Origin: Dehalococcoidia bacterium
GTDB lineage: Bacteria > Chloroflexota > Dehalococcoidia > Lucifugimonadales > JAGWBF01
Assembly (NCBI GenBank): GCA_963663025.1
Contig: OY760073.1
Location: 613,567-677,566, forward strand
Reading direction: 5' to 3'
DNA length: 64,000 nucleotides
Positions 29,153 through 57,119 of the stretch are shown in pieces. Positions within the stretch are counted from its first letter, which is position 1. Each line of letters begins with the position of its first letter. The notes beneath the pieces were generated by a model. That model saw only the letters and a list, made by a program, of their open reading frames with translations, was not told the origin of the DNA and searched no databases. Both the position numbers and the translations under genes were made by a program.

Positions 29153-30058
29153 TCACTTGTTCCCGTCGGATTTCTTGATCTCGACGTTCGCCATATATTC
29201 AACGTGGCGGACGATGGCAGAGTGGTCGCACTCCGCCATGTCCCGGTTCATCAATGCACCCAGCATCTGCTGGACGAGGCTGGTCACCGGCAGAGGCACT
29301 CCCAGGTCCTTTCCCGTCAGCAGGGCGTTCTGAAGGTCCTTCTGGTGCAGCCGTATGCGGAAGCCGGGATTGAAGTTGCGGTCCATTATCATGGGGGCCT
29401 TGGCTTCCAAAGCGTTGCTGCCTGCTAGCCCTGCCCGGATGGCCCCGAAGACGAGATCGGGGTCGATTCCTGCCTTCTGGGATAGGGAGAAGGCTTCGCC
29501 GATGGCTTCGATGTTGGCGGCTACCATTATCTGGTTGGCCAGCTTCACCACGTTGCCCGCCCCCACGTCCCCGACCAGAACGACGCTTCTGCCCATGACG
29601 TTCAGGATGGGCAGGCACCGCTCGAAGGTGTCCTGTTTGCCGCCGACCATTATCGCCAGGGTGCCGGCGATTGCTCCCGGCTCACCCCCGCTTACAGGGG
29701 CATCCAGCATGTCGATACCCTTCTCGCCGGCGGCGCGGGCGATCTTCTGCGACACCAGCGGGGCGATGGAGCTCATGTCGATGATGGTGCATCCAGCTTC
29801 GGCGCCTTCCAGGATCCCTCCTTCGCCCATGATGACCAGCTCGGAGTCAGGAGAGTCGGGCAGCATGGTGATGACAACATCGGAACACTGCGCCACTTCC
29901 CTGCCCGACCAAGCGACGGCCGCTCCCTCGCCAGCCAGCTCATCCACCGATGCCCGGCTGCGGTTGTGCAGCGTCAGCTCGTAGCCGGCCTTCATGAGGT
30001 TCCTGGCCATGGGTTTGCCCATGATGCCCAAGCCAATAAAGCCGATTCTTGGCTCCAT
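29153..30058 (-). CDS. 2-hydroxy-3-oxopropionate (tartronate semialdehyde) reductase / 3-hydroxyisobutyrate dehydrogenase family
   Basis: IGFIGLGIMGKPMARNL Rossmann start. 301 aa. Conserved DAPVSGG and K...N catalytic region. Confidence 0.85.
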   Translation of the reverse strand: MEPRIGFIGLGIMGKPMARNLMKAGYELTLHNRSRASVDELAGEGAAVAWSGREVAQCSDVVITMLPDSPDSELVIMGEGGILEGAEAGCTIIDMSSIAPLVSQKIARAAGEKGIDMLDAPVSGGEPGAIAGTLAIMVGGKQDTFERCLPILNVMGRSVVLVGDVGAGNVVKLANQIMVAANIEAIGEAFSLSQKAGIDPDLVFGAIRAGLAGSNALEAKAPMIMDRNFNPGFRIRLHQKDLQNALLTGKDLGVPLPVTSLVQQMLGALMNRDMAECDHSAIVRHVEYMANVEIKKSDGNK

Positions 30059-30730: not shown

Positions 30731-33643
30731 ATGGCAAGTTCAGCCCGCAACAGGATCATGGCTACCGAAGGCGAAGAGCTGGCCCAAGAGCTTCGTAAGC
30801 GAGTATCCGGGGAAGTGCGGTTCGACGCCTACTCCCGCCTGCTGTACAGCACTGATGCGTCGATCTACCAGATGGACCCGGTGGGTGTGGTTATACCCCG
30901 CAACTCCGAAGATGTGCTTGCGGTCATGGAAGTGGCGGCGCAGAACAGGGTGCCTGTGCTCCCCCGGTGTGGTGGGACGAGCCTGGCGGGCCAGACGGTG
31001 AACCATGCCATCGTCATGGACTTCAGCAAGTACATGCACCAGGTCTTGGAGATAAACGAGGAGGAGCGATGGGCGCGGGTGCAGCCGGGTATCGTTCTGG
31101 ATATCCTGAACCGCCAGCTTTCCTCGATGAGACTGCAGTACGCCCCGGACCCTACAACGTCCAACCGGGCGTGCGTGGGAGGCGGAATCGGCAACAACAC
31201 CTGTGGTTCCCATTCCGTCATCTATGGCAAGACCGTCGACCATATCCAGGAGGTATCGGTGGTGCTCACCGATGGCTCCCAAGCCCGGTTCGGCCCCCTG
31301 GATGCCGATGAGCTTCAACGAAAGATGGCAGCGACGTCCTTCGAGGGCCAAGTTTACAGGGATGTCATGCGTATCGCGGAGGAGAACAGGGATGAGGTGG
31401 CTGCCCGGTACCCCAAGATCATGCGCCGGGTCAGCGGCTACAATCTGGATGAACCCCTGAACGTGGGTGCCGGGAATCCCTTCAACATGGCCCGGATGGT
31501 GGTAGGTTCCGAGGGCACCTTCTGCGTTGTCACCGAGGCGAAGGTCAACCTGGTGCCTGTCCCTCCCAAGAAGGGACTGGCCGTCTTGCATTTTCAGGAT
31601 ATGGTGCGCTCCTGCGAAGCGACATGGGAGATCCTGAAACACAAGCCCGACACCATCGAGCTCATCGGCAGGATGATCCTGGACCGGTGTCGCGAGTCCC
31701 TGGGCTTCAACCGGCTGCTGGCGCCTATAGAAGGTGAGCCTGATGCGCTGCTGGTCGTGGAGTTCAGCGGGGAAAGCGATGCCGAGGTTGCTAACAAGAT
31801 CGAGAAGCTCAAGAACGACATGGTCCGCAGGGACCTGGCCTACGCCTGCGTGCAGCTCACGGAGCCCCGAGACCAGTCGAACATCTGGGCATTGCGAGCG
31901 GCCGGTCTGGGCCTGTTAATGAGCACCCGGGGCGACTCCAAGCCTCTCCCATACGTGGAAGATACGGCCGTCGACCCTGAACACCTGGGAGAGTTCATCG
32001 CCAGGTTCGACCAGATAGTGAAGGCCCACGACACTCAAGCAGGCTACTACGGCCACGCCAGCGTAGGGTGCATGCATATCCGCCCCCTGGTGAACCTCAA
32101 AACCCCCGAGGGCATCCGGCGCATGGTCTCCATCGCATCAGACATCAGCGATTTGGTGCTGGAGTACGGCGGTTCCCTGAGCGGCGAGCACGGGGATGGC
32201 ATCGTCAGGGGGGTGTGGACCGAGAAGATGTTCGGCCCCACCATCTACAAGGCCTTCCAGGATCTCAAGCAGACCTTCGACCCCGCCGGCATAATGAACC
32301 CGGGGAAGATCATAGATACTCCTCCCATGACTGAGAATCTAAGGTTTGGGACTGGGTACGCAACGGACCCCCTGCAGACGACCCTGGATTTCTCTGCTGA
32401 TGAAGGCTACGCGGGCGCCGTCGAGATGTGCAACGGCATGGGGGCGTGCCGCAAGATGACCGGAAGCATGTGTCCCTCCTACATGGCCACCAGGGAGGAG
32501 GAGCACTCCACGAGGGGACGGGCAAACCTGCTGAGGGCCGTCCTGTCGGGGACCCTGCCCGAAGACACCATGGCAAGCAAACGGCTCCATGATGCCCTGG
32601 ACCTTTGCCTGGAGTGCAAAGCCTGCAAGGCTGAGTGCCAGACAGGCGTGGATATGGCCAAGCTGAAGTACGAGTTCCTGGACCATTTCCAGAGAAGCCA
32701 CGGGGTGCCTGTCAGGTCCAGGCTATTCGCCAACATTAGGCGCCTCAGCTCGCTGGCATCCAAGCTCGGTCCCTTCTCCAACATAGCGGTGAACAACCCC
32801 CTGGCCCGTCTTTTCCTTCACCGAGTAGTGGGCATCCACCCCAGCAGGAGCTTGCCGCCCCAGGCCTCCCAGACCTTCCCCAGGTGGTTCCGGTCCAGGC
32901 CGACCACACGCGAAAAGGCAGCAAAGCAGGTTGTCCTCTTCAACGACACCTTCATGAACTACAACTACCCCCAGGTCGGGAAAGCCGCCGTGGCCATACT
33001 GGAGCAGGCTGGCTATAGCGTGACGCTGGCCGACTCCCTGTGCTGTGGTCGCCCGATGATCTCCAAGGGCCTGCTTTACCAGGCGGCGTCGAACGCCCGG
33101 CGCAACGTTGAGCAGCTTTACAGCTATGCGGAGCAGGGCATACCCATCGTCGGGTGCGAGCCAAGCTGCCTGCTAACGCTAAAGGACGAATACCCCGACT
33201 TGGCCCGCGACGACAAAGCCAAGGCTGTGGCCGAAGACAGTTACATGATCGATGAGTTCCTGATGCTTCTTCACGAGAAAGGGGAGCTGGAGCTTAGCTT
33301 CTCTGATTTAGAGAAAAATGTGGTGTTCCATGGGCATTGCCACCAGAAGGCCCTGGTGGGCACCCGTCACTCGATGGAGCTGCTGAGGTTGCCCCCAGGC
33401 TACAATGTCGAAGAGATCAACGCAGGCTGCTGCGGGATGGCAGGGTCTTTCGGCTACGAGGCGGAGCACTACGATGTGTCCATGGACATCGGCCGGCTGC
33501 AGCTGTTCCCGGCGGTGGCAGCTAAGGACAGCGGCTGGGAGGTTGCTGTGATGGGTGTCTCATGCCGCCAGCAGATCGAGCACGGCACAGGGAGAAGAAG
33601 TCGTCACGTCGTTGAGGTCCTGCAGGACGCCCTTGCTGGATGA
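30731..33643 (+). CDS. fused FAD-linked oxidase / 4Fe-4S / CCG-domain oxidoreductase (GlcD-GlcF-like, 2-hydroxyacid dehydrogenase type)
   Basis: 970 aa. N-terminal FAD_binding_4-like region (PRCGGTSLAGQ), ferredoxin motif CLECKACKAEC, and two CCG motifs (LCCGRP, GCCGMAGSFG). Confidence 0.85.
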   Translation: MASSARNRIMATEGEELAQELRKRVSGEVRFDAYSRLLYSTDASIYQMDPVGVVIPRNSEDVLAVMEVAAQNRVPVLPRCGGTSLAGQTVNHAIVMDFSKYMHQVLEINEEERWARVQPGIVLDILNRQLSSMRLQYAPDPTTSNRACVGGGIGNNTCGSHSVIYGKTVDHIQEVSVVLTDGSQARFGPLDADELQRKMAATSFEGQVYRDVMRIAEENRDEVAARYPKIMRRVSGYNLDEPLNVGAGNPFNMARMVVGSEGTFCVVTEAKVNLVPVPPKKGLAVLHFQDMVRSCEATWEILKHKPDTIELIGRMILDRCRESLGFNRLLAPIEGEPDALLVVEFSGESDAEVANKIEKLKNDMVRRDLAYACVQLTEPRDQSNIWALRAAGLGLLMSTRGDSKPLPYVEDTAVDPEHLGEFIARFDQIVKAHDTQAGYYGHASVGCMHIRPLVNLKTPEGIRRMVSIASDISDLVLEYGGSLSGEHGDGIVRGVWTEKMFGPTIYKAFQDLKQTFDPAGIMNPGKIIDTPPMTENLRFGTGYATDPLQTTLDFSADEGYAGAVEMCNGMGACRKMTGSMCPSYMATREEEHSTRGRANLLRAVLSGTLPEDTMASKRLHDALDLCLECKACKAECQTGVDMAKLKYEFLDHFQRSHGVPVRSRLFANIRRLSSLASKLGPFSNIAVNNPLARLFLHRVVGIHPSRSLPPQASQTFPRWFRSRPTTREKAAKQVVLFNDTFMNYNYPQVGKAAVAILEQAGYSVTLADSLCCGRPMISKGLLYQAASNARRNVEQLYSYAEQGIPIVGCEPSCLLTLKDEYPDLARDDKAKAVAEDSYMIDEFLMLLHEKGELELSFSDLEKNVVFHGHCHQKALVGTRHSMELLRLPPGYNVEEINAGCCGMAGSFGYEAEHYDVSMDIGRLQLFPAVAAKDSGWEVAVMGVSCRQQIEHGTGRRSRHVVEVLQDALAG

Positions 33644-34057: not shown

Positions 34058-34226
34058 CTCCCGTTCGTCTCACTCTGAATCGACCCACGCCTACAGAATC
34101 GAGAGTCCCCGGCACACTTAAGCCTGTGCTGAGCTGCCCCCCGTTAGGGCATGGTACAATGTATCCCCACATATCCTGCTGGTCAAGCCCTGCTCCGGCG
34201 CATGGTGTTGAGGGCGACGGCGCCCT

Positions 34227-34820
34227 TTGAAAGAGGGAGAATTGCCTCAGAAACTGGTCTGCTTTCTGCTGTTGGTCTTCCTTGCCATGGTCCCGGTGGT
34301 GGTCGCCTGCGGCGGTAGTGGCGCTTCGGGCCCTACGGAGGCAGAGCGGGACAGCTCATCAGCCCTGGCAGTTGCCCCGGACTTCACTGCCCAGAAGGCG
34401 TCTGGAGGCGAGGTTACACTATCCGAGGCCCTCCAGGAGTCCGAAATCGCTGTGCTGGTCTTCTACCGAGGGGTGTTTTGACCATACTGCCGTCAGCAGC
34501 TCGGCGGGCTGCAAGAAGGATATGCGGAGTTCAGGGAGTTCGATGCAGAGGTGCTGGCCATCAGCACCGATAGCGTCCAGGGGGCATCGGAAATGAAGAG
34601 CCGGGTGGGGGCAGAGTTCCCGATATTGGCTGACCCCGGCGCCCAGGTGGCGAAAGCCTACGGCGTGTTCGACGTGCTTCATGATGGGCTCGCAGCTCCG
34701 GCAGCCTTCATCATAGACAAAGACCGGAACATCCTGTGGAGCTTCGTGGGCTCACGGGTAAACGATAGGGCGAGGCCCCCGACGCTGCTTACTGCCCTAG
34801 GCGAACTGGAGGGCCTGTAA
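34227..34820 (+). CDS. PRX-like (AhpC/TSA, thioredoxin-fold) lipoprotein; putative selenoprotein with in-frame UGA at 34479-34481
   Basis: The track ORFs 34227-34481 and 34551-34820 share one frame and are separated only by one TGA. Read-through gives VLVFYRGVF-U-PYCRQQL...LAISTDS...FPILADP, and the TGA sits where family members carry the first Cys of (W)CPxC. N-terminal lipobox VVVACGG. Confidence 0.6.
34487..34512 (+). promoter_or_regulatory. candidate bacterial SECIS-like hairpin(s) downstream of the in-frame UGA
   Basis: GCAGCUC-GGC-GGGCUGC (34496-34512, 7 bp including one G.U) begins 15 nt after the UGA. An alternative is CUGCCG-9 nt-CGGCGG (34487-34507). Not validated against a SECIS model. 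Confidence 0.35.
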
Positions 34821-35376
34821 AGGACTGCCTGAACGTGTGAAGGTTTACCTCCGGCTCGATGGGGCTGACTGGCAGCGGCTCCACATCCTCGATCTTCGCA
34901 ACGATGAACCACGGGCCGTCGGATGCCAGGGCTTCCTTGAAGACCGTTTCCAATTCCTCTTCGGTGGATACCGTTGTGGACTTGGGAATGTTGCAGCTCC
35001 GGGCCACACCCTCGAGGTCCGTCCCCGTCGCTGTGTGGCTGGGCTGGTGCCCGGTCTGCGACCACTGCTCGTTGTCCCATACCACCACGACGAGGTTCGC
35101 CGGCTGCTCTCGCCCTATGGTGCCCAGGGTGCCTAGATTCATGAGCAGGGAGCCGTCCCCGTCCAGGGAGACTACCTTCTCGTTGGTGGAGAGGGCGACG
35201 CCAAGGGCGATGGACGAGCATAGGCCCATTCCGCCGTAGGTGTAGAAGTTGCGGCTGCGGTCACCCAGGTGCCATAGCTCATCAGTGGTGGGCCCCAGGT
35301 TGCTGACTATGGGCTGCTCGCCTAGGTAGCTGAGCAACAGCTTAGTGGCATCTTGTCTACGCACGCTTCCCTCCAT
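34789..35376 (-). CDS. comE: sulfopyruvate/phosphonopyruvate decarboxylase-like ThDP enzyme, beta subunit
   Basis: 195 aa. ThDP-binding motif region GGMGLCSSIALG...LDGDGSLLMN. Overlaps the alpha-subunit gene by 20 nt. Confidence 0.7.
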   Translation of the reverse strand: MEGSVRRQDATKLLLSYLGEQPIVSNLGPTTDELWHLGDRSRNFYTYGGMGLCSSIALGVALSTNEKVVSLDGDGSLLMNLGTLGTIGREQPANLVVVVWDNEQWSQTGHQPSHTATGTDLEGVARSCNIPKSTTVSTEEELETVFKEALASDGPWFIVAKIEDVEPLPVSPIEPEVNLHTFRQSFTGPPVRLGQ

Positions 35377-37916: not shown

Positions 37917-37942
37917 CCGGCCTGAAACAACATAAGCCACTG

Positions 37943-38208
37943 TCCGTTCAGGTGCCCACCCAGGGAGAATAGGGAAGGCGGTAAGAGTCCGCCGCGGTAG
38001 CGCCACTGTAAGCGGGTCTAGGTGCCGGAGCCCACTGTCGATAGGCCGATGGGAAGGGCCCGATGAAGGAAACCACCCGTGAGCCAGGAGACCTGCCTGA
38101 ACGGAGGGTGACCACTCTCCGCACCAGAGAGGGTCCCTTATCCCCCGGCAAGAGTTCCGGGCAGAAGGATAGACCTCCAGCGGGGAGCCGCCGGAGGTCT
38201 TTTTGTTT
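37943..38208 (+). promoter_or_regulatory. cobalamin (B12) riboswitch with terminator expression platform
   Basis: 10-bp P1 helix: TCCGTTCAGG (37943-37952) pairs with CCTGAACGGA (38096-38105). Conserved core AAUAGGGAAGGCGGUAAGAGUCCGCC. B12 box GCCACUG (38002-38008). 3' core GAGCCAGGAGACCUGCC. Followed by an intrinsic terminator and B12-salvage genes. Confidence 0.85.
38171..38208 (+). terminator. intrinsic terminator (riboswitch expression platform)
   Basis: AGACCTCC (38171-38178) pairs with GGAGGTCT (38193-38200). Inner GCGG-GGAG-CCGC stem-loop. Followed by TTTTTGTTT. Confidence 0.7.
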
Positions 38209-38316: not shown

Positions 38317-39138
38317 ATGAACTGCGCCAGAGAGCAAGGGATATCGGTAGAAGGCCTGACGTGGGAGATCGATGCCAGGAGGATCCTGGACGGTGTGGGC
38401 CTGCATGCCGGCCGGGGCCAGTTCGTTGGCTTGGTCGGACCGAACGGCGCCGGCAAGTCCACACTGCTGAGAGCCATCTCCGGGATCCTTTCCCATGTGG
38501 AAGGCTCGGTGCATCTGGATGGGGAGGACATCAGGTCCCTGTCCTCGCGAAAGGTCGCAGCAAACCTCGCCCTCGTTCCGCAGATTGCGCCCTACACCTA
38601 CGGGTTTACCAGCTTAGAGCTTGTGCTAATGGGTAGGTACCCCCATCTTGGGCGCTTCCAGATCGAGGGCAATAATGACCACCGGATCGCTATGGATGCG
38701 ATGGAGCTCACCGAAACCGGAGAGTTCGCCGAAAGGACGATGGACACATTGTCGGGAGGAGAACGCCAGAGGGTCCTGGTGGCGAGGGCGCTGGCCCAGC
38801 AGCCCCGCGTACTGCTGCTGGACGAACCCACATCGAACCTGGACATCCTGCACCAGCTCAAGGTGCTGGATGTGGTGCGACAACTGGTGGACGATGGCCT
38901 TGCTGCCATCGCTGCCATCCACGATCTGAATATGGCTGCACGCTACTGCGACAGGCTGGTTCTGCTGCAAGAGGGACGGGTAGTCGTAGAGGGGTTTGCA
39001 GAGGATGTCCTGACGCCGGAGACCATCGAGTCCGCCTTTGGGGTAAGAGCCGCTGTGTACCGTGACCCCATCACAGAATGTTTGGCCATAAGCCTCATCG
39101 GCCCGGCAGACACGAGAGGTAACGGCACTAGCACCTAG
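38317..39138 (+). CDS. ABC transporter ATP-binding protein, FepC/BtuD/HmuV (iron-siderophore/cobalamin/heme) type
   Basis: Walker A GPNGAGKST, signature LSGGERQR, Walker B LLLDEPTS. MGRYPH motif typical of the FecE/BtuD clade. Confidence 0.85.
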   Translation: MNCAREQGISVEGLTWEIDARRILDGVGLHAGRGQFVGLVGPNGAGKSTLLRAISGILSHVEGSVHLDGEDIRSLSSRKVAANLALVPQIAPYTYGFTSLELVLMGRYPHLGRFQIEGNNDHRIAMDAMELTETGEFAERTMDTLSGGERQRVLVARALAQQPRVLLLDEPTSNLDILHQLKVLDVVRQLVDDGLAAIAAIHDLNMAARYCDRLVLLQEGRVVVEGFAEDVLTPETIESAFGVRAAVYRDPITECLAISLIGPADTRGNGTST

Positions 39139-39192
39139 GGATGGGGCCAGGCTAGTAGCCCCGCTAGAGACTAGACCCATGGAGAATAGGCC

Positions 39193-40272
39193 ATGGCCTT
39201 GGAAGATGTGGTTGGTCGAATCGGAAGGGCGGACAGCCGGGCAATGGGAGAAGCTGAGCTCCGGCAAGGACGCTTAACCAAACCGCCTAGCAGCCTTGGA
39301 CGCCTGGAAGGCCTGTCAGTTCAGCTGGCCGGAATATTCGGCACCAAACGCCCGGCAATCAGGGGCAAGGCCCTTATCGTGGCGGCTGCCGATCATGGCG
39401 TGGTGGCCCAGAATGTGACTTCATATCCCCAAGCGGTAACCGCCCAGATGGTACTGAACTTCCTCGAGGGCGGCGCCGCGGTAAATGTCATGGCTCGCAA
39501 GGCAGGGGTGGACCTGGTCATCGTGGATGCAGGCGTTGTTGCCCCGCTGCCTACCCATCCTAAGCTGAGGGTGATTGGCGTCGGCGGCGGCACAGGCGAC
39601 ATCACCCGGGGGCCGGCCATGTCGCGTGAGCAGGCCGAAACCTGCGTCTTGGCGGGAGTCGGGCTTGCTTTGGAAGCTGCTGAGAAGGGCGCGGACATGA
39701 TCGGCGGTGGCGATATGGGAATTGGCAACACCACCGCATCCAGCGCCATAGCGTCAGCCTTGACGGGAAAGACGGCCGAGGAAACGACGGGTAGGGGCAC
39801 GGGCCGCACCGACCAGCAGTTGGAGCACAAGGTCCAGGTTGTCCAACAGGCCCTTGAAGTGAATCGCCCTGATCCCGGCGATGGTCTGGATGTCCTGGCC
39901 AAGGTAGGTGGATTCGAGATTGGCGTGCTGGCCGGTGTCGTACTTGGGGGCGCCATGGCCCGCCGGGTGGCGGTTCTCGACGGCTTTATCTCCGGGGCCG
40001 CCGGACTGATAGCCCAGGCCCTGTGTCCGCAGGTCAGGGACTACATGGTGGCCTCCCATCTGTCCGCAGAAGGAGGGCATCGAGTCGTTCTGTCGCACCT
40101 GGGACTGGAGCCCCTGCTGGACCTGGGGATGCGCCTGGGGGAGGGCACCGGGGCTGTGCTGGCGATGGGCCTGATCGAAGCAGCCGCTGCTTGCCTCGCT
40201 GAGATGGCGACCTTCGAAGGGGCGGGGGTCTCCGATAGGGAAGGGAACGGAGAACCAGAGGGGGCTAGTTGA
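39193..40272 (+). CDS. cobT: nicotinate-nucleotide--dimethylbenzimidazole phosphoribosyltransferase
   Basis: 359 aa. LTKPPSSLGRLE, AADHGV, GDMGIGNTT and LGEGTGA motifs. Confidence 0.9.
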   Translation: MALEDVVGRIGRADSRAMGEAELRQGRLTKPPSSLGRLEGLSVQLAGIFGTKRPAIRGKALIVAAADHGVVAQNVTSYPQAVTAQMVLNFLEGGAAVNVMARKAGVDLVIVDAGVVAPLPTHPKLRVIGVGGGTGDITRGPAMSREQAETCVLAGVGLALEAAEKGADMIGGGDMGIGNTTASSAIASALTGKTAEETTGRGTGRTDQQLEHKVQVVQQALEVNRPDPGDGLDVLAKVGGFEIGVLAGVVLGGAMARRVAVLDGFISGAAGLIAQALCPQVRDYMVASHLSAEGGHRVVLSHLGLEPLLDLGMRLGEGTGAVLAMGLIEAAAACLAEMATFEGAGVSDREGNGEPEGAS

Positions 40273-55101: not shown

Positions 55102-57048
55102 CTATTCGTCGAGATTCTCAATTTCGACTGGTTTCAGATTGTCCGCAGGGTTGAATCCGAATATGCGTGAGTAAAACTGGAACTCGGCCGAAAGGCACCG
55201 TTTTATTGTCTCCGCCTTGCGAAAGCCGTGCTGCTCCCCCTCGAAGGCCAGGTATGCTGTGGGCACTCCGTTAGCCTTTAAGGCGTTGAACATCTCCTGG
55301 GACTGGGCTGCGGGAACGATGGTGTCATCAAGTCCTTGGAAAAAGATTACCGGGCGTGACGAATATCCTGGAAAGTTGATGGGTGAGCGCTCCACGTACC
55401 TGCGGCGGTGCAGGGGATACGGGCCGACCAGCCCGACAAGACTATAGGCGTCGAACTTGTGAATGTCGGTGAGCAAAGCTTCCAAATCGCTTACCCCGAA
55501 GTAGCTGGCGCCGGCCTTGAACACATCTCTGAAAGTCAAGGACGCCAGGGCGGTGAACCCCCCGGCACTGGCTCCGCTGATGGCGATTCGGTCGCCATCC
55601 ACATCCCCTCGCTGGACCATGTACAGGGCAGCGTTGACGCAGTCGTCCACATCCACCACGCCCCACTCGCCGATGAGGCGCTCCCGGTAGTCCCGCCCGT
55701 ACCCGGTGCTGCCCCCATAGTTTACGTCCAGGACCGCAAATCCCCGGCTGGTCCAGTACTGGACGGTGGGGTTGAGGTCCGTCTTTGCGGCGCTGTGTGG
55801 CCCGCCATGGCAGGTGACGAGCATGGGAGGCTTCTCACCTTCGGGGGCTGCAAAGTCCCGACTATACGGCGGATAGAAGAAGGCGTGGGCCGAAAGCCCA
55901 TCGAATGTCGGGAATTCGATGGCCTCGGGAACGGACATGCAGTCCGACGGTATCTCGTCGTCGCTTTCCGCCCTGAGGACAGCGACCTCTTCATCCTCGA
56001 TGCTGATCTCCACAAGGGACATGGGCCGCGTGGGGGATCCGGCGACCAGCGCAACACGGCCCTGGCTGGCCTGGAGGTCGCCGTGCCCCATTTCGGTGAA
56101 TGGGAACTCGATGGGTACCAGCCTTCCTTCATCCAGGAAGATGCGTCCCAGGCTCCAGGTTCCTTTTTGGACGTAGCTGCAGACCAGGGTGTTGGGAGAG
56201 TCGAACCCGTAGGAGCACATCCCGACCCACCAGTTGGCCTTGGAAAACTCGGCCTCCATAAGGAGCACGGGCTCCACCCAGCCGTGTCGCCACCTATACA
56301 GGTTGGCCCAGCCGGTCCGGTCAGAGATGAAATACAGGTCGCCGGAGGGGGACCATTCGGGCTGTATAACAGCCTCATCCACGCTGCCGGCTACCAGGGT
56401 TGGTTCTCCCAGCTGTCCGTTGTTCTGGAAGGGCGCTGTCCAGAGGTGGGTGCCGTCCCAGGGCATATTGGGATGGTCCCAGGTGAGCCATGCCAGCCGT
56501 GCGCCGTCGGGGCTAACGCAGGGGGAGCTGTGAAAGTCATTGTCGGTCAAGAGTACCCTGGGGTCCCGCCTCCCCGCGGTATCCAGAGAGACGATTTCGC
56601 TAAGGGGATGGTCCGAATCGGGGTTGCTGTGGTTCTCGCGGATGCAGACCAGCCTGCCTTGACCAGGATGAAACACCTTGCTGCCGTACCGGAAGTTCCC
56701 TTCAGGAGTGATCGGCGCAGGCGCGCTGCCGGGAAGCTGGCGGTAAACCCGATGGTCTGCGCTGTTCGAAAAGTAGATGACCTCATCAGCCACGGTGAAG
56801 CCCCTGGTCCCGTATTCATTGACCATGCTTCCCACGCTGAAACCCGGGGAAGTGACGTCCTCCATCCCACCTTGCCGGTTTCGCTTGACTATTACCGTCC
56901 GTCCGCCCTCGGCGGGGCGGACCTCGGCCCAGTAGGTGTCCGGTCCGTCCAACGAGATGCGAAGAAGACTGATGGCGCCGTGGGCGACCATGTCCAGCGA
57001 AACGGGAGACTTCCAGGACCCGAATGCTGCGACTATAGGAAGGGTCAT
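55102..57048 (-). CDS. S9 family serine peptidase (prolyl oligopeptidase / acylaminoacyl-peptidase type)
   Basis: N-terminal beta-propeller region. C-terminal alpha/beta domain with nucleophile elbow GASAGG and a D...H pair (GLDDTIV...EGEQHGF). Confidence 0.85.
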   Translation of the reverse strand: MTLPIVAAFGSWKSPVSLDMVAHGAISLLRISLDGPDTYWAEVRPAEGGRTVIVKRNRQGGMEDVTSPGFSVGSMVNEYGTRGFTVADEVIYFSNSADHRVYRQLPGSAPAPITPEGNFRYGSKVFHPGQGRLVCIRENHSNPDSDHPLSEIVSLDTAGRRDPRVLLTDNDFHSSPCVSPDGARLAWLTWDHPNMPWDGTHLWTAPFQNNGQLGEPTLVAGSVDEAVIQPEWSPSGDLYFISDRTGWANLYRWRHGWVEPVLLMEAEFSKANWWVGMCSYGFDSPNTLVCSYVQKGTWSLGRIFLDEGRLVPIEFPFTEMGHGDLQASQGRVALVAGSPTRPMSLVEISIEDEEVAVLRAESDDEIPSDCMSVPEAIEFPTFDGLSAHAFFYPPYSRDFAAPEGEKPPMLVTCHGGPHSAAKTDLNPTVQYWTSRGFAVLDVNYGGSTGYGRDYRERLIGEWGVVDVDDCVNAALYMVQRGDVDGDRIAISGASAGGFTALASLTFRDVFKAGASYFGVSDLEALLTDIHKFDAYSLVGLVGPYPLHRRRYVERSPINFPGYSSRPVIFFQGLDDTIVPAAQSQEMFNALKANGVPTAYLAFEGEQHGFRKAETIKRCLSAEFQFYSRIFGFNPADNLKPVEIENLDE

Positions 57049-57119
57049 GCGAAAAGCCTGCCTTAGGGGTATATCTAAAGGAAATGGCCTCATAAAGCGT
57101 ACCAGAATGCCACTTCTCC

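What the first reader, a model, noticed from the sequence alone, without database searches (positions are those of the whole stretch)
34227..34820. Candidate selenocysteine (UGA) at the redox centre of an exported PRX-like thioredoxin-fold lipoprotein
The two ORFs called separately (84 aa and 89 aa) are in the same frame with only one stop between them, the TGA at 34479-34481. Read-through produces a continuous 197-aa AhpC/TSA PRX-like protein. The TGA falls exactly in VLVFYRGVF-[UGA]-PYCRQQL, where this family carries the first Cys of the (W)C-P-x-C redox motif. That placement is the hallmark of Cys/Sec pairs. A GC-rich hairpin (34496-34512) begins 15 nt downstream, as expected for a bacterial SECIS. 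The N-terminus has a lipobox (VVVACGG). Sec-containing thioredoxin-fold/Prx-like proteins have been reported in bacterial and marine selenoproteome surveys, so the class is not new. An automatic annotator would nonetheless miss or split this gene. An exported Sec lipoprotein in this lineage deserves checking.
Basis: partly seen in the sequence, partly recalled or inferred. Interest (0 to 1): 0.6.

Follow-up and report, generated by a model that had tools for sequence, protein, structure and literature searches.

The report
Selenocysteine Prx-like lipoprotein gene, known family
The in-frame TGA is almost certainly a selenocysteine codon in an exported thioredoxin-fold redox lipoprotein, but the gene belongs to a selenoprotein family described since 2004-2005, so it is a correct call and not a new kind of thing.

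Summary
Window 34227-34820 (+) is one reading frame with a single stop, TGA at 34479-34481, in VLVFYRGVF-[TGA]-PYCRQQL. With the TGA read through, the product matches Pfam AhpC-TSA (2.7e-31) across the TGA.

A codon-pattern scan of one genome per species found at least 119 loci with TGA at this same column. All that are not cut by a contig end stay open about 100 aa further. One is a syntenic orthologue in a Dehalococcoidia chromosome (82-90% nt identity). Cys homologues carry WCPYC there.

The hairpin at 34496-34512 is conserved in the family:
- 83% of its cells are paired, against 28-40% for slid controls and 41% in Cys forms.
- It shows compensatory synonymous changes.

TGA is a normal stop elsewhere in the window.

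The protein fits the published "Prx-like thiol:disulfide oxidoreductase" selenoprotein family (pfam00578, UxxC). It lacks the peroxiredoxin Pro, Thr and Arg and has a Trx-type Pro instead. Its lipoprotein signal is conserved.

The window holds no selA, selB, selD or tRNA-Sec, so Sec machinery could only be supported at lineage level.

The likelier start codon is TTG 34242, not 34227.

The parts
34242..34820 (+). Full selenoprotein gene (192 codons including UGA, plus stop TAA at 34818-34820).
   Evidence: Single frame with one internal TGA. Pfam AhpC-TSA 2.7e-31 spans the TGA. TTG 34242 is conserved in orthologue L045 whereas 34227 is TGG there. Synonymous and nonsynonymous differences to L045 are similar on both sides of the TGA.
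34231..34238 (+). Shine-Dalgarno-like AGAGGGAG ahead of TTG 34242
   Evidence: Read from the sequence. AAGGAA sits at the same place in L045. Function is inferred.
34242..34310 (+). Lipoprotein signal peptide ending in the lipobox V-V-A-C (34299-34310). The lipidated Cys codon is 34308-34310.
   Evidence: Translation MPQKLVCFLLLVFLAMVPVVVAC. L045 has LLLLVFLAMIPVVAACGG. 99 of 116 evaluable family members have a hydrophobic N-terminal segment and 39 have a lipobox-like motif. Pattern match only; no signal-peptide predictor was available.
34479..34481 (+). UGA read as selenocysteine (U85 in the 197-aa numbering, U80 from the 34242 start); N-terminal residue of the UxxC redox motif
   Evidence: Aligned with the first Cys of CxxC in homologues. 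TGA is at the same column in at least 119 genome loci and in L001-L003. It is conserved in syntenic L045.
34488..34490 (+). TGC, the resolving Cys of UxxC (C88); aligns with the peroxidatic Cys of true peroxiredoxins
   Evidence: Nearly invariant column C88 in alignment A1. It aligns with the Cys of the SPVC motif (the TxxC-type peroxidatic position) in PDB 2cx3 BCP.
34496..34512 (+). SECIS-type hairpin: 7-bp stem GCAGCUC/GGGCUGC with apical loop GGC, inside the coding sequence for QQLGGLQ
   Evidence: Folded (-12.7 kcal/mol for the +10..+42 segment). Across 121 sequences the helix has 83.2% of cells paired against 28-40% when slid, and a covariation score of 0.300 against 0.177 shuffled, 0/500. 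Cys forms are 40.8% paired.
34698..34700 (+). CCG, Pro158, at the position of the catalytic Arg of peroxiredoxins; the position expected for the Trx-fold cis-Pro
   Evidence: In alignment A1 the query reads GLAAPAAF where Prx homologues read GIATRGTF. All CxxC/UxxC members have Pro and all T/SxxC members have Arg. The cis conformation is inferred.

Best explanation
This is one gene for an exported, lipid-anchored thioredoxin-fold oxidoreductase. Its nucleophilic active-site residue is selenocysteine, encoded by UGA 34479-34481.

Proposed sequence of events:
1. During translation, the hairpin at 34496-34512 lies 14 nt past the UGA and has a small G-rich apical loop. It recruits SelB carrying Sec-tRNA(Sec), so the ribosome inserts Sec instead of terminating.
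2. The N-terminal signal peptide with lipobox VVAC sends the protein through the general secretion pathway. It is lipidated on Cys28 and tethered to the outer face of the cytoplasmic membrane.
3. There the U85-P-Y-C88 pair cycles between selenol/thiol and selenenylsulfide. It acts as a thiol:disulfide reductase, or a Sec-based hydroperoxide reductase, for extracytoplasmic substrates.

Shown here:
- frame continuity;
- Cys/Sec alignment;
- family-wide TGA conservation;
- the conserved, covarying hairpin;
- the conserved signal/lipobox pattern;
- loss of the Prx catalytic triad, with Pro at the Arg position.

Inferred, not shown:
- actual Sec insertion;
- presence of selA, selB, selC and selD in this genome;
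- lipidation;
- substrate and electron donor.
For: Frame and domain:
- One frame, one TGA.
- AhpC-TSA 2.7e-31 spans the TGA.

TGA is not reassigned:
- 26 of 67 crude ORF calls end in TGA.
- At least 11 of those are Pfam-supported genes.

Family-wide TGA:
- The pattern VxVFYRxx[W/F]-TGA-xYC found at least 119 genome loci where my own information-content estimate expected about one chance match.
- Apart from loci cut by a contig end, all continue about 100 aa or more after the TGA, with conserved QLxEL...AISxD.
- L045 is a syntenic orthologue in a Dehalococcoidia chromosome at 82-90% nt identity.
- L045 keeps the TGA. Differences are 23 synonymous and 17 nonsynonymous over 110 downstream codons, against 19 and 15 over 82 upstream codons.

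Cys homologues:
- They have WCPYC or CxxC at the site.

Hairpin:
- 83.2% of cells paired, against 28-40% for slid controls.
- The pair at columns 18-34 is GC in 63 sequences, UA in 24 and CG in 8.
- Gln CAA always co-occurs with Leu TTG, 8 of 8.
- Synonymous resampling gives 64.6% paired (maximum 68.1%) against 83.2% observed.
- Cys forms are 40.8% paired. Their mean MFE is -5.7 against -10.9 kcal/mol, p = 5e-25.
- Column 25, the first loop base, is G in over 90% of sequences. [quoted passage not shown]

Selenium use in carriers:
- selD lies within about 4 kb of the gene in three Longimicrobiales loci.
- Dehalococcoidia MAGs are among the ten most selenoprotein-rich bacteria in BSepDB (PMC13326102).

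Fold:
- An AlphaFold model of Cys homologue P0006 (pLDDT 87) puts the first Cys at the N-cap of helix 83-94.
- Its fold matches BCP/PrxQ and ResA structures.
Against: - No tRNA-Sec, SelA, SelB or SelD is in the 64-kb window or in the Dehalococcoidia loci fetched. The decoding machinery of this organism is unverified.
- The hairpin of this one sequence is not significant on its own: z = 0.25, and 8.5% of synonymous re-codings are as stable.
- Part of its conservation comes from the conserved peptide QLxEL, which gives 64.6% pairing from protein constraint alone.
- The Cys control set is mostly a sister subfamily (CPYCN[LI]xL) with lower GC (0.56 against 0.62), so it is an imperfect control.
- No Rfam family covers bacterial SECIS elements, so no curated model could be applied.
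- No conserved neighbour such as CcdA/DsbD or Msr points to a partner or substrate.
- No member of this family has been biochemically characterised. Reviews list it as "predicted".
Confidence: 0.88

Rival explanations
1. The product is a Sec-dependent peroxidase and not a disulfide reductase. Sec85 is oxidised by hydroperoxide to selenenic acid, Cys88 resolves it to a selenenylsulfide, and an external thiol recycles it. This rival concerns function only and shares the Sec reading.
For: - The nearest sequence and structure relatives are peroxiredoxins: BCP/PrxQ, AhpE and AhpC.
- NCBIfam hits include PrxU and AhpC.
- From general knowledge, not tested here: Sec reacts fast with peroxides without much activation, as in GPx.
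Against: - The Prx catalytic Pro, Thr and Arg are all replaced: FYR for FYP, U for T, and Pro158 for Arg.
- The residue at the Prx peroxidatic position is the second residue of a Trx-type UxxC motif.
- ResA- and DsbE-type oxidoreductases match nearly as well.
- The literature names the family a thiol:disulfide oxidoreductase, by prediction only.
Confidence: 0.3
2. The TGA is a true stop. The locus is a pseudogene, a sequencing or assembly error, or two separate small ORFs.
For: - Gene callers list two ORFs.
- Databases hold only fragments of homologues, such as P0032.
- No Sec machinery is visible in the window.
Against: - TGA sits at the identical column in at least 119 species-level genomes and in 3 metagenome contigs. 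The downstream frames are open and conserved.
- The orthologue at 85% nt identity keeps the TGA, has no frameshift or extra stop, and shows similar constraint on both sides.
- The Pfam domain needs both halves.
- The second ORF's GTG start would give a protein lacking the active site.
Confidence: 0.03
3. The UGA is read through, but not as Sec. The inserted residue could be Trp or Cys through near-cognate or suppressor tRNA, or the organism could have a reassigned code.
For: - JGI's pipeline translated the homologue P0001 with W at this codon.
- Sec machinery is unverified for this genome.
Against: - TGA terminates many Pfam-supported genes in the window, so there is no global reassignment.
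- The codon sits exactly at a redox Cys position.
- It is followed by a covarying hairpin at SECIS distance that Cys forms largely lack.
- selD is adjacent in some carriers.
- The W in P0001 does not come from a TGG codon: the DNA reads TGA.
Confidence: 0.05

Closest known systems
Prx-like thiol:disulfide oxidoreductase selenoprotein family ("Prx-like 1", pfam00578, UxxC/UxxU). Reviews cite their reference 12 for it; I take that to be Kryukov & Gladyshev 2004 (from memory, reference list not checked). Also Sargasso Sea 2005, GOS 2008; reference protein WP_010940744.1.
   Same: - Same Pfam domain (AhpC-TSA).
- Same UxxC motif, with Sec at the Thr position of the Prx TxxC and Cys at the peroxidatic position.
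- Same kind of SECIS: a small G-containing apical loop just downstream of the UGA.
- The function is likewise predicted only.
   Different: Nothing essential differs. This copy is from a Dehalococcoidia (Chloroflexota) genome and carries a lipoprotein signal. I could not fetch WP_010940744.1 to measure identity. Subfamily placement within "Prx-like 1/2/3" rests on the Pfam hit and the motif.
TlpA/ResA/CcmG(DsbE)-type extracytoplasmic thiol-disulfide oxidoreductases (e.g. B. subtilis ResA, PDB 1st9/1su9)
   Same: - Membrane-tethered, outward-facing Trx-fold proteins with a (W)CxxC motif at a helix N-terminus.
- Pro at the cis-Pro position.
- Structures and NCBIfam models match.
- This is what the protein most probably works like.
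   Different: - Sec replaces the nucleophilic Cys.
- Sequence is closer to BCP/AhpE peroxiredoxins.
- NCBIfam ResA scores 46 bits (cutoff 170) and DsbE 20 bits (cutoff 123).
- No cytochrome-maturation or CcdA genes are nearby.
BCP/PrxQ and AhpE peroxiredoxins (PDB 2cx3, 3hjp, 3drn, 1xvw)
   Same: Best sequence and fold matches: E = 3.6e-13 to 2cx3, and Foldseek TM about 0.9 normalised to the target. Cys88 aligns with their peroxidatic Cys.
   Different: The defining PxxxTxxC...R catalytic set is absent: R81, U85 and P158 occupy those positions. It is not a canonical peroxiredoxin.
SelL / SelL-related redox proteins (NCBIfam NF040769; eukaryotic SelL is called a Prx-like selenoprotein in PMC2398784. 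That it carries a UxxU motif is from my own knowledge, not checked here.)
   Same: Best NCBIfam hit (2e-16, 60 bits), covering the active-site half of the domain. It is likewise a Prx-like scaffold with a Trx-type motif containing Sec.
   Different: The score is half the curated cutoff of 120 bits, and only profile positions 3-99 of 173 match. The motif is UxxC, not UxxU. The protein is a relative, not a member.

Membership tests
Bacterial selenoprotein gene (UGA decoded as Sec) | In-frame UGA aligned with Cys in homologues | tested here: met
   Cys homologues read GQWCPYC, GFWCPYC and GRFCGTC. 109 metagenome Cys forms read WC[PA]YC.
Bacterial selenoprotein gene (UGA decoded as Sec) | Coding conservation continues downstream of the UGA | tested here: met
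   At least 119 loci have open, conserved frames after the TGA. The orthologue L045 has 23 synonymous and 17 nonsynonymous differences over 110 downstream codons, with no stops or frameshifts. Codon-usage scores are coding-like on both sides.
Bacterial selenoprotein gene (UGA decoded as Sec) | SECIS stem-loop immediately downstream with a small apical loop containing G | tested here: met
   The hairpin is at 34496-34512 with loop GGC. At family level 83.2% of cells are paired, the covariation score is 0.300 against 0.177 (0/500), slid controls give 28-40%, and Cys forms 40.8%. The window sequence alone is not significant. No curated Rfam model exists.
Bacterial selenoprotein gene (UGA decoded as Sec) | Genome encodes selA, selB, selD and tRNA-Sec | not testable with these tools
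   None is in the window. Lineage-level support only: Dehalococcoidia MAGs have 46-49 selenoproteins (PMC13326102), and selD lies beside the gene in Longimicrobiales.
Bacterial selenoprotein gene (UGA decoded as Sec) | Selenium demonstrated in the protein | not testable with these tools
   Needs 75Se labelling or mass spectrometry.
Prx-like thiol:disulfide oxidoreductase selenoprotein (pfam00578, UxxC) | AhpC-TSA (PF00578) domain | tested here: met
   2.7e-31, 108.5 bits against a cutoff of 26.
Prx-like thiol:disulfide oxidoreductase selenoprotein (pfam00578, UxxC) | [quoted passage not shown] | tested here: met
   The motif is U85-P-Y-C88. U is at the Thr/Ser column and C88 at the peroxidatic Cys column. 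The family definition is quoted.
Canonical peroxiredoxin (PxxxTxxC plus catalytic Arg) | Conserved Pro and Thr of PxxxT/SxxC | tested here: not met
   FYRGVFUPYC against FYPLSFTSVC: Arg replaces Pro and Sec replaces Thr.
Canonical peroxiredoxin (PxxxTxxC plus catalytic Arg) | Catalytic Arg before the beta strand (R116 of M. tuberculosis AhpE) | tested here: not met
   GLAAPAAF against GIATRGTF: Pro158 replaces Arg.
NCBIfam NF040769 SelL-related redox protein | Score at or above the curated cutoff (120 bits) | tested here: not met
   60.1 bits, profile positions 3-99 of 173.
TlpA/ResA/DsbE-type oxidoreductases | Family model score at or above cutoff | tested here: not met
   ResA NF002854 scores 46.1 bits against 170. 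DsbE TIGR00385 scores 20.3 against 123.15.
TlpA/ResA/DsbE-type oxidoreductases | Extracytoplasmic location, CxxC at a helix N-terminus, cis-Pro | tested here: inconclusive
   Signal peptide and lipobox are pattern matches. In the model of Cys homologue P0006 the first Cys is at the helix N-cap. Pro is at the expected column. The cis geometry and the location were not shown.
Bacterial lipoprotein (SPase II substrate) | n-region, hydrophobic core and lipobox [LVI][ASTVI][GAS]C | tested here: met
   (M)PQK-LVCFLLLVFLAMVPV-VVAC-GG, conserved in L045. Pattern inspection only; no dedicated predictor was available, and lgt/lsp were not looked for.

The most novel reading that the evidence does not exclude
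The most novel reading still open has two parts. First, this UGA might be decoded in a Dehalococcoidia genome that lacks canonical selA/selB, i.e. by non-canonical recoding. Second, the family might use two interchangeable hairpin registers as distinct SECIS classes: columns 18-34 in most lineages, columns 13-31 in Pyrinomonadaceae and Thermoanaerobaculia. A milder version: the protein is a surface-tethered selenoenzyme of a probably single-membrane (my assumption, not tested) bacterium with an extracellular peroxide- or disulfide-reducing role that nobody has characterised.
Probability: 0.04. Interest if true: 0.65.

Novelty: new member of a known kind. Interest (0 to 1): 0.2.

Why it matters
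In practice this is an annotation fix. The two fragments 34227-34481 and 34551-34820 should be merged into one selenoprotein gene with transl_except at 34479-34481. The same error is widespread in public data: the homologue P0001 is stored with Trp at the UGA, and P0032 exists only as a C-terminal fragment.

Biologically, it adds a Chloroflexota (Dehalococcoidia) example to a selenoprotein family that is common in metagenomes. According to the reviews read here, no member of the family has been characterised experimentally. The 121-sequence set assembled here shows synonymous-site covariation in the SECIS hairpin and a clear Sec-versus-Cys contrast. That makes it a clean test case for SECIS models, though it does not change what is known about selenoproteins.

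Tried and rejected
1. Source genome. Exact-protein look-ups for two window proteins found nothing, so the genome could not be inspected for sel genes.
2. Sec machinery nearby. ARAGORN and tblastn with E. coli SelA, SelB and SelD were run on the window and 122 loci. There was no tRNA-Sec, SelA or SelB anywhere, and SelD only in three Longimicrobiales loci.
3. Single-sequence folding of 34479-34540 was not significant, z = 0.25. The SECIS case rests on comparative data.
4. Rfam at a permissive threshold gave only a chance hit at E = 1.7. No bacterial SECIS family matched (I know of none in Rfam).
5. Other selenoprotein genes in the window. A codon-usage screen of all TGA-bridged ORF pairs found only this gene and an ordinary gene boundary at 29155.
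6. Conserved operon partners. Clustering ORFs within 3.5 kb either side across the family loci gave no shared neighbour. The top clusters are fragments of the gene itself and a shadow ORF.
The Cys homologue P0006 was modelled instead, so active-site geometry is by proxy.
8. Global TGA reassignment was rejected, because TGA ends many Pfam-supported genes.
9. Canonical peroxiredoxin membership was rejected, because the catalytic Pro, Thr and Arg are absent.
10. A second large protein search for Dehalococcoidia SelB or SelD was considered and not run. It would give only lineage-level evidence, which BSepDB already provides.
Full report
**What is in the sequence**

Window 34227-34820 on the + strand is a single reading frame. 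It is interrupted only by TGA at 34479-34481, in the context VLVFYRGVF-[TGA]-PYCRQQL.

With the TGA written as Cys, the 197-aa product hits Pfam AhpC-TSA at 2.7e-31 over residues 50-170 and Redoxin at 2.6e-22. A single domain therefore spans the stop.

TGA is not reassigned in this genome. It ends 26 of 67 crude ORF calls, and at least eleven of those have full Pfam domain support. I also screened every in-frame TGA that has ORFs on both sides, using a codon-usage score. Only this site and a trivial gene boundary at 29155 look coding on both sides.

**Related sequences**

The closest database proteins are only about 48% identical. They show how annotation pipelines treat this family:
- P0001 (JGI) is stored with Trp at the critical position, but its DNA reads TGA: VLVFYRAFW-TGA-PYCRRQL.
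- P0032 (ENA) is just the C-terminal fragment of a gene whose upstream part reads VVVFYRAFW-TGA-VYCRAQL.

Cys-containing homologues have GQWCPYC, GFWCPYC or GRFCGTC at the same place.

I then scanned one genome per species (GTDB set) for the codon pattern V-x-V-F-Y-R-x-x-[W/F]-TGA-x-Y-C.
- From the pattern's information content I expected about one chance match.
- In every locus not cut by a contig end, the frame stays open for about 100 aa or more after the TGA, with conserved QLxEL...AISxD.
- The carriers are Dehalococcoidia, Gemmatimonadota/Longimicrobiales, several Acidobacteriota orders, Myxococcota and scattered others, including cultured Polyangium strains.

Locus L045 comes from a complete Dehalococcoidia MAG chromosome (OZ220675.1).
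- It is syntenic with the window over its whole 8 kb at 82-90% nucleotide identity. The window therefore comes from a close relative.
- The orthologue keeps the TGA and has no frameshift or extra stop.
- It differs by 23 synonymous and 17 nonsynonymous codons downstream of the TGA (110 codons), against 19 and 15 upstream (82 codons).
- Both halves are thus under the same kind of constraint.

**The hairpin**

The stem-loop GCAGCUC-GGC-GGGCUGC lies at 34496-34512. That is columns 18-34 when the T of TGA is column 1.

On its own it is unremarkable. The 62-nt fold has z = 0.25, and 8.5% of synonymous re-codings of the same peptide are as stable.

Across 121 distinct family sequences, aligned without gaps, the picture is different:
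- The seven pairs are formed in 83.2% of cells. Sliding the 3' partner by 1-3 columns gives 28-40%.
- The covariation score is 0.300 against 0.177 in shuffles (0 of 500 reach it).
- 67 cells have changes on both sides, against 26 expected.
- The outer pair is G-C in 63 sequences, U-A in 24 and C-G in 8.
- Gln codon CAA (instead of CAG) occurs 8 times, always with Leu TTG (instead of CTG) opposite it. That is a purely synonymous compensatory change.
- Resampling synonymous codons while keeping every protein sequence gives 64.6% pairing (maximum 68.1% in 200 trials) against 83.2% observed. Selection therefore acts on the RNA beyond the conserved QLxEL peptide.
- The first loop base is G in more than 90% of sequences. 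[quoted passage not shown]

As a control I scanned metagenomes for the same pattern with TGY in place of TGA. This gave 109 usable Cys forms.
- At the same columns they pair in 40.8% of cells.
- Their +10..+42 segment folds at -5.7 kcal/mol on average, against -10.9 for the Sec forms (p = 5e-25).
- Shuffle z-scores are -0.19 against -1.38.
- The control is imperfect. Most Cys forms belong to a sister subfamily (CPYCN[LI]xL) and are slightly less GC-rich.

Some lineages (Pyrinomonadaceae, Thermoanaerobaculia) use a hairpin shifted five bases upstream, at columns 13-31.

**What kind of protein**

The best solved-structure relatives by sequence are BCP/PrxQ (2cx3, E = 3.6e-13), AhpE, AhpC, DsbE and ResA. 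An AlphaFold model of the Cys homologue P0006 (pLDDT 87) matches BCP structures at TM about 0.9 normalised to the target, with ResA close behind.

The alignment shows three departures from a true peroxiredoxin:
- Sec sits at the Thr/Ser position of the Prx PxxxT/SxxC motif, while Cys88 sits at the peroxidatic Cys position.
- The Prx Pro is Arg here (FYR).
- The catalytic Arg of peroxiredoxins is Pro here (GLAAPAAF against GIATRGTF).

All CxxC/UxxC members have that Pro, and all T/SxxC members have Arg. From established knowledge of the thioredoxin fold, this is the position of the cis-Pro of Trx-like oxidoreductases.

In the model the first Cys caps the N-terminus of the active-site helix, as the nucleophile of a CxxC motif does. 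So the scaffold is Prx-like but the catalytic apparatus is thioredoxin-like.

This is exactly how the literature defines the family:
- "Prx-like 1, pfam00578, UxxC", with 225 sequences in the Global Ocean Sampling data (PMC2398784).
- "Prx-like thiol:disulfide oxidoreductase, PF00578, UxxC/UxxU", listed as predicted, not experimentally verified (PMC9312934 and PMC13188914).

The best NCBIfam model is SelL-related redox protein, at 60 bits against a cutoff of 120. The protein is therefore a relative and not a member of that model.

**Export**

The N-terminus has a Lys-containing n-region, a hydrophobic core and the lipobox V-V-A-C. L045 has the same architecture.

TTG 34227 is TGG in L045. TTG 34242 is conserved and follows a Shine-Dalgarno-like AGGGAG, so the start is more likely 34242.

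In the family, 99 of 116 evaluable members have a strongly hydrophobic N-terminal segment and 39 have a lipobox-like motif. Dehalococcoidia members often add a long Pro/Thr-rich linker. Extracytoplasmic location is therefore a family trait, by pattern inspection only.

**What could not be shown**

The window contains no tRNA-Sec, SelA, SelB or SelD, and neither do the Dehalococcoidia loci. The source genome could not be located.

Support for Sec decoding in this lineage is indirect:
- SelD lies within about 4 kb of this gene in three Longimicrobiales genomes.
- Two Dehalococcoidia MAGs are among the ten bacteria with the most selenoprotein genes, 46 and 49, in BSepDB (PMC13326102).

No conserved neighbour gene suggests a redox partner or substrate. 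In the window the gene stands alone, between a divergent DnaJ-domain gene and a convergent TPP-enzyme gene that overlaps its last 32 bases.

**Verdict**

It is a selenocysteine-containing, exported Prx-like thiol:disulfide oxidoreductase with a coding-region SECIS hairpin.

It is a new member of a well-documented selenoprotein family, in a lineage already known to be rich in selenoproteins. Its value is correct annotation, not discovery.

I put 0.88 on the Sec-gene reading. Within it, I favour disulfide/selenenylsulfide exchange over peroxidase chemistry roughly two to one.

Noticed in passing
window 37933-38114 (+), with 38317-40272: Cobalamin riboswitch (Rfam RF00174, 105.5 bits). Downstream lie an ABC-transporter ATPase gene and a CobT-type phosphoribosyltransferase (DBI_PRT) gene, so this looks like a B12-regulated salvage or transport cluster.
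   Followed up: partly
L001/L002 (JGI 3300064085) and L003 (ENA scaffold_271535): Public protein databases mishandle this family. P0001 is stored with Trp at the TGA, as if translated with code 4. P0032 is only the C-terminal fragment of a split gene.
   Followed up: yes
L057 2994 and 4383; L077 3259 and 3932; L089 5498 and 6887: Three Dehalococcoidia genomes carry two copies of the TGA-containing gene side by side on the same strand. Both copies have lipoprotein-like N-termini.
   Followed up: no
L006 4128-5054, L117 335-1348, L120 4072-5001: A SelD (selenophosphate synthetase) homologue, 44-47% identical to E. coli SelD, lies within about 4 kb of the Prx-like Sec gene in three Longimicrobiales genomes.
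   Followed up: partly
Alignment A2, columns 13-31 versus 18-34: There are two hairpin registers after the UGA. Most lineages use columns 18-34. Pyrinomonadaceae and Thermoanaerobaculia use GCUCGGC-AGUUG-GCCGAGC five bases earlier. Some sequences could form either.
   Followed up: partly
L145 (metagenome contig Ga0055480_10004833): This is a Cys form (HWCPYCAGQLTELK) that otherwise looks like the Gemmatimonadota Sec forms. It keeps a partial hairpin CAGCUC-ACG-GAGCU (-9.4 kcal/mol). It may be a recent Sec-to-Cys conversion with a decaying SECIS.
   Followed up: no
window 34152-34160: TGGTACAAT, an extended -10-like promoter element about 80 nt upstream of the start, is identical in the orthologous region of L045 while the flanking bases differ. 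The consensus promoter scan did not report it.
   Followed up: no
window 34789-34820: The last 32 bases of the selenoprotein gene overlap the 3' end of the convergent TPP-enzyme gene (34789-35376, - strand). No intrinsic terminator-like site was found between them.
   Followed up: no
window 30731-33643 (+): A 970-aa fusion of a GlcD-type FAD-linked oxidase (FAD_binding_4 plus FAD-oxidase_C) with 4Fe-4S dicluster and CCG cysteine-rich domains lies immediately upstream of the divergent DnaJ-domain gene.
   Followed up: no
window 55102-57093 (-): A prolyl-oligopeptidase (S9) gene has 66-72% nucleotide matches in several Dehalococcoidia loci that were fetched only because they carry the Prx-like Sec gene (L044, L054, L062, L077, L089). 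In those genomes the two genes are neighbours, but here they are 20 kb apart.
   Followed up: no
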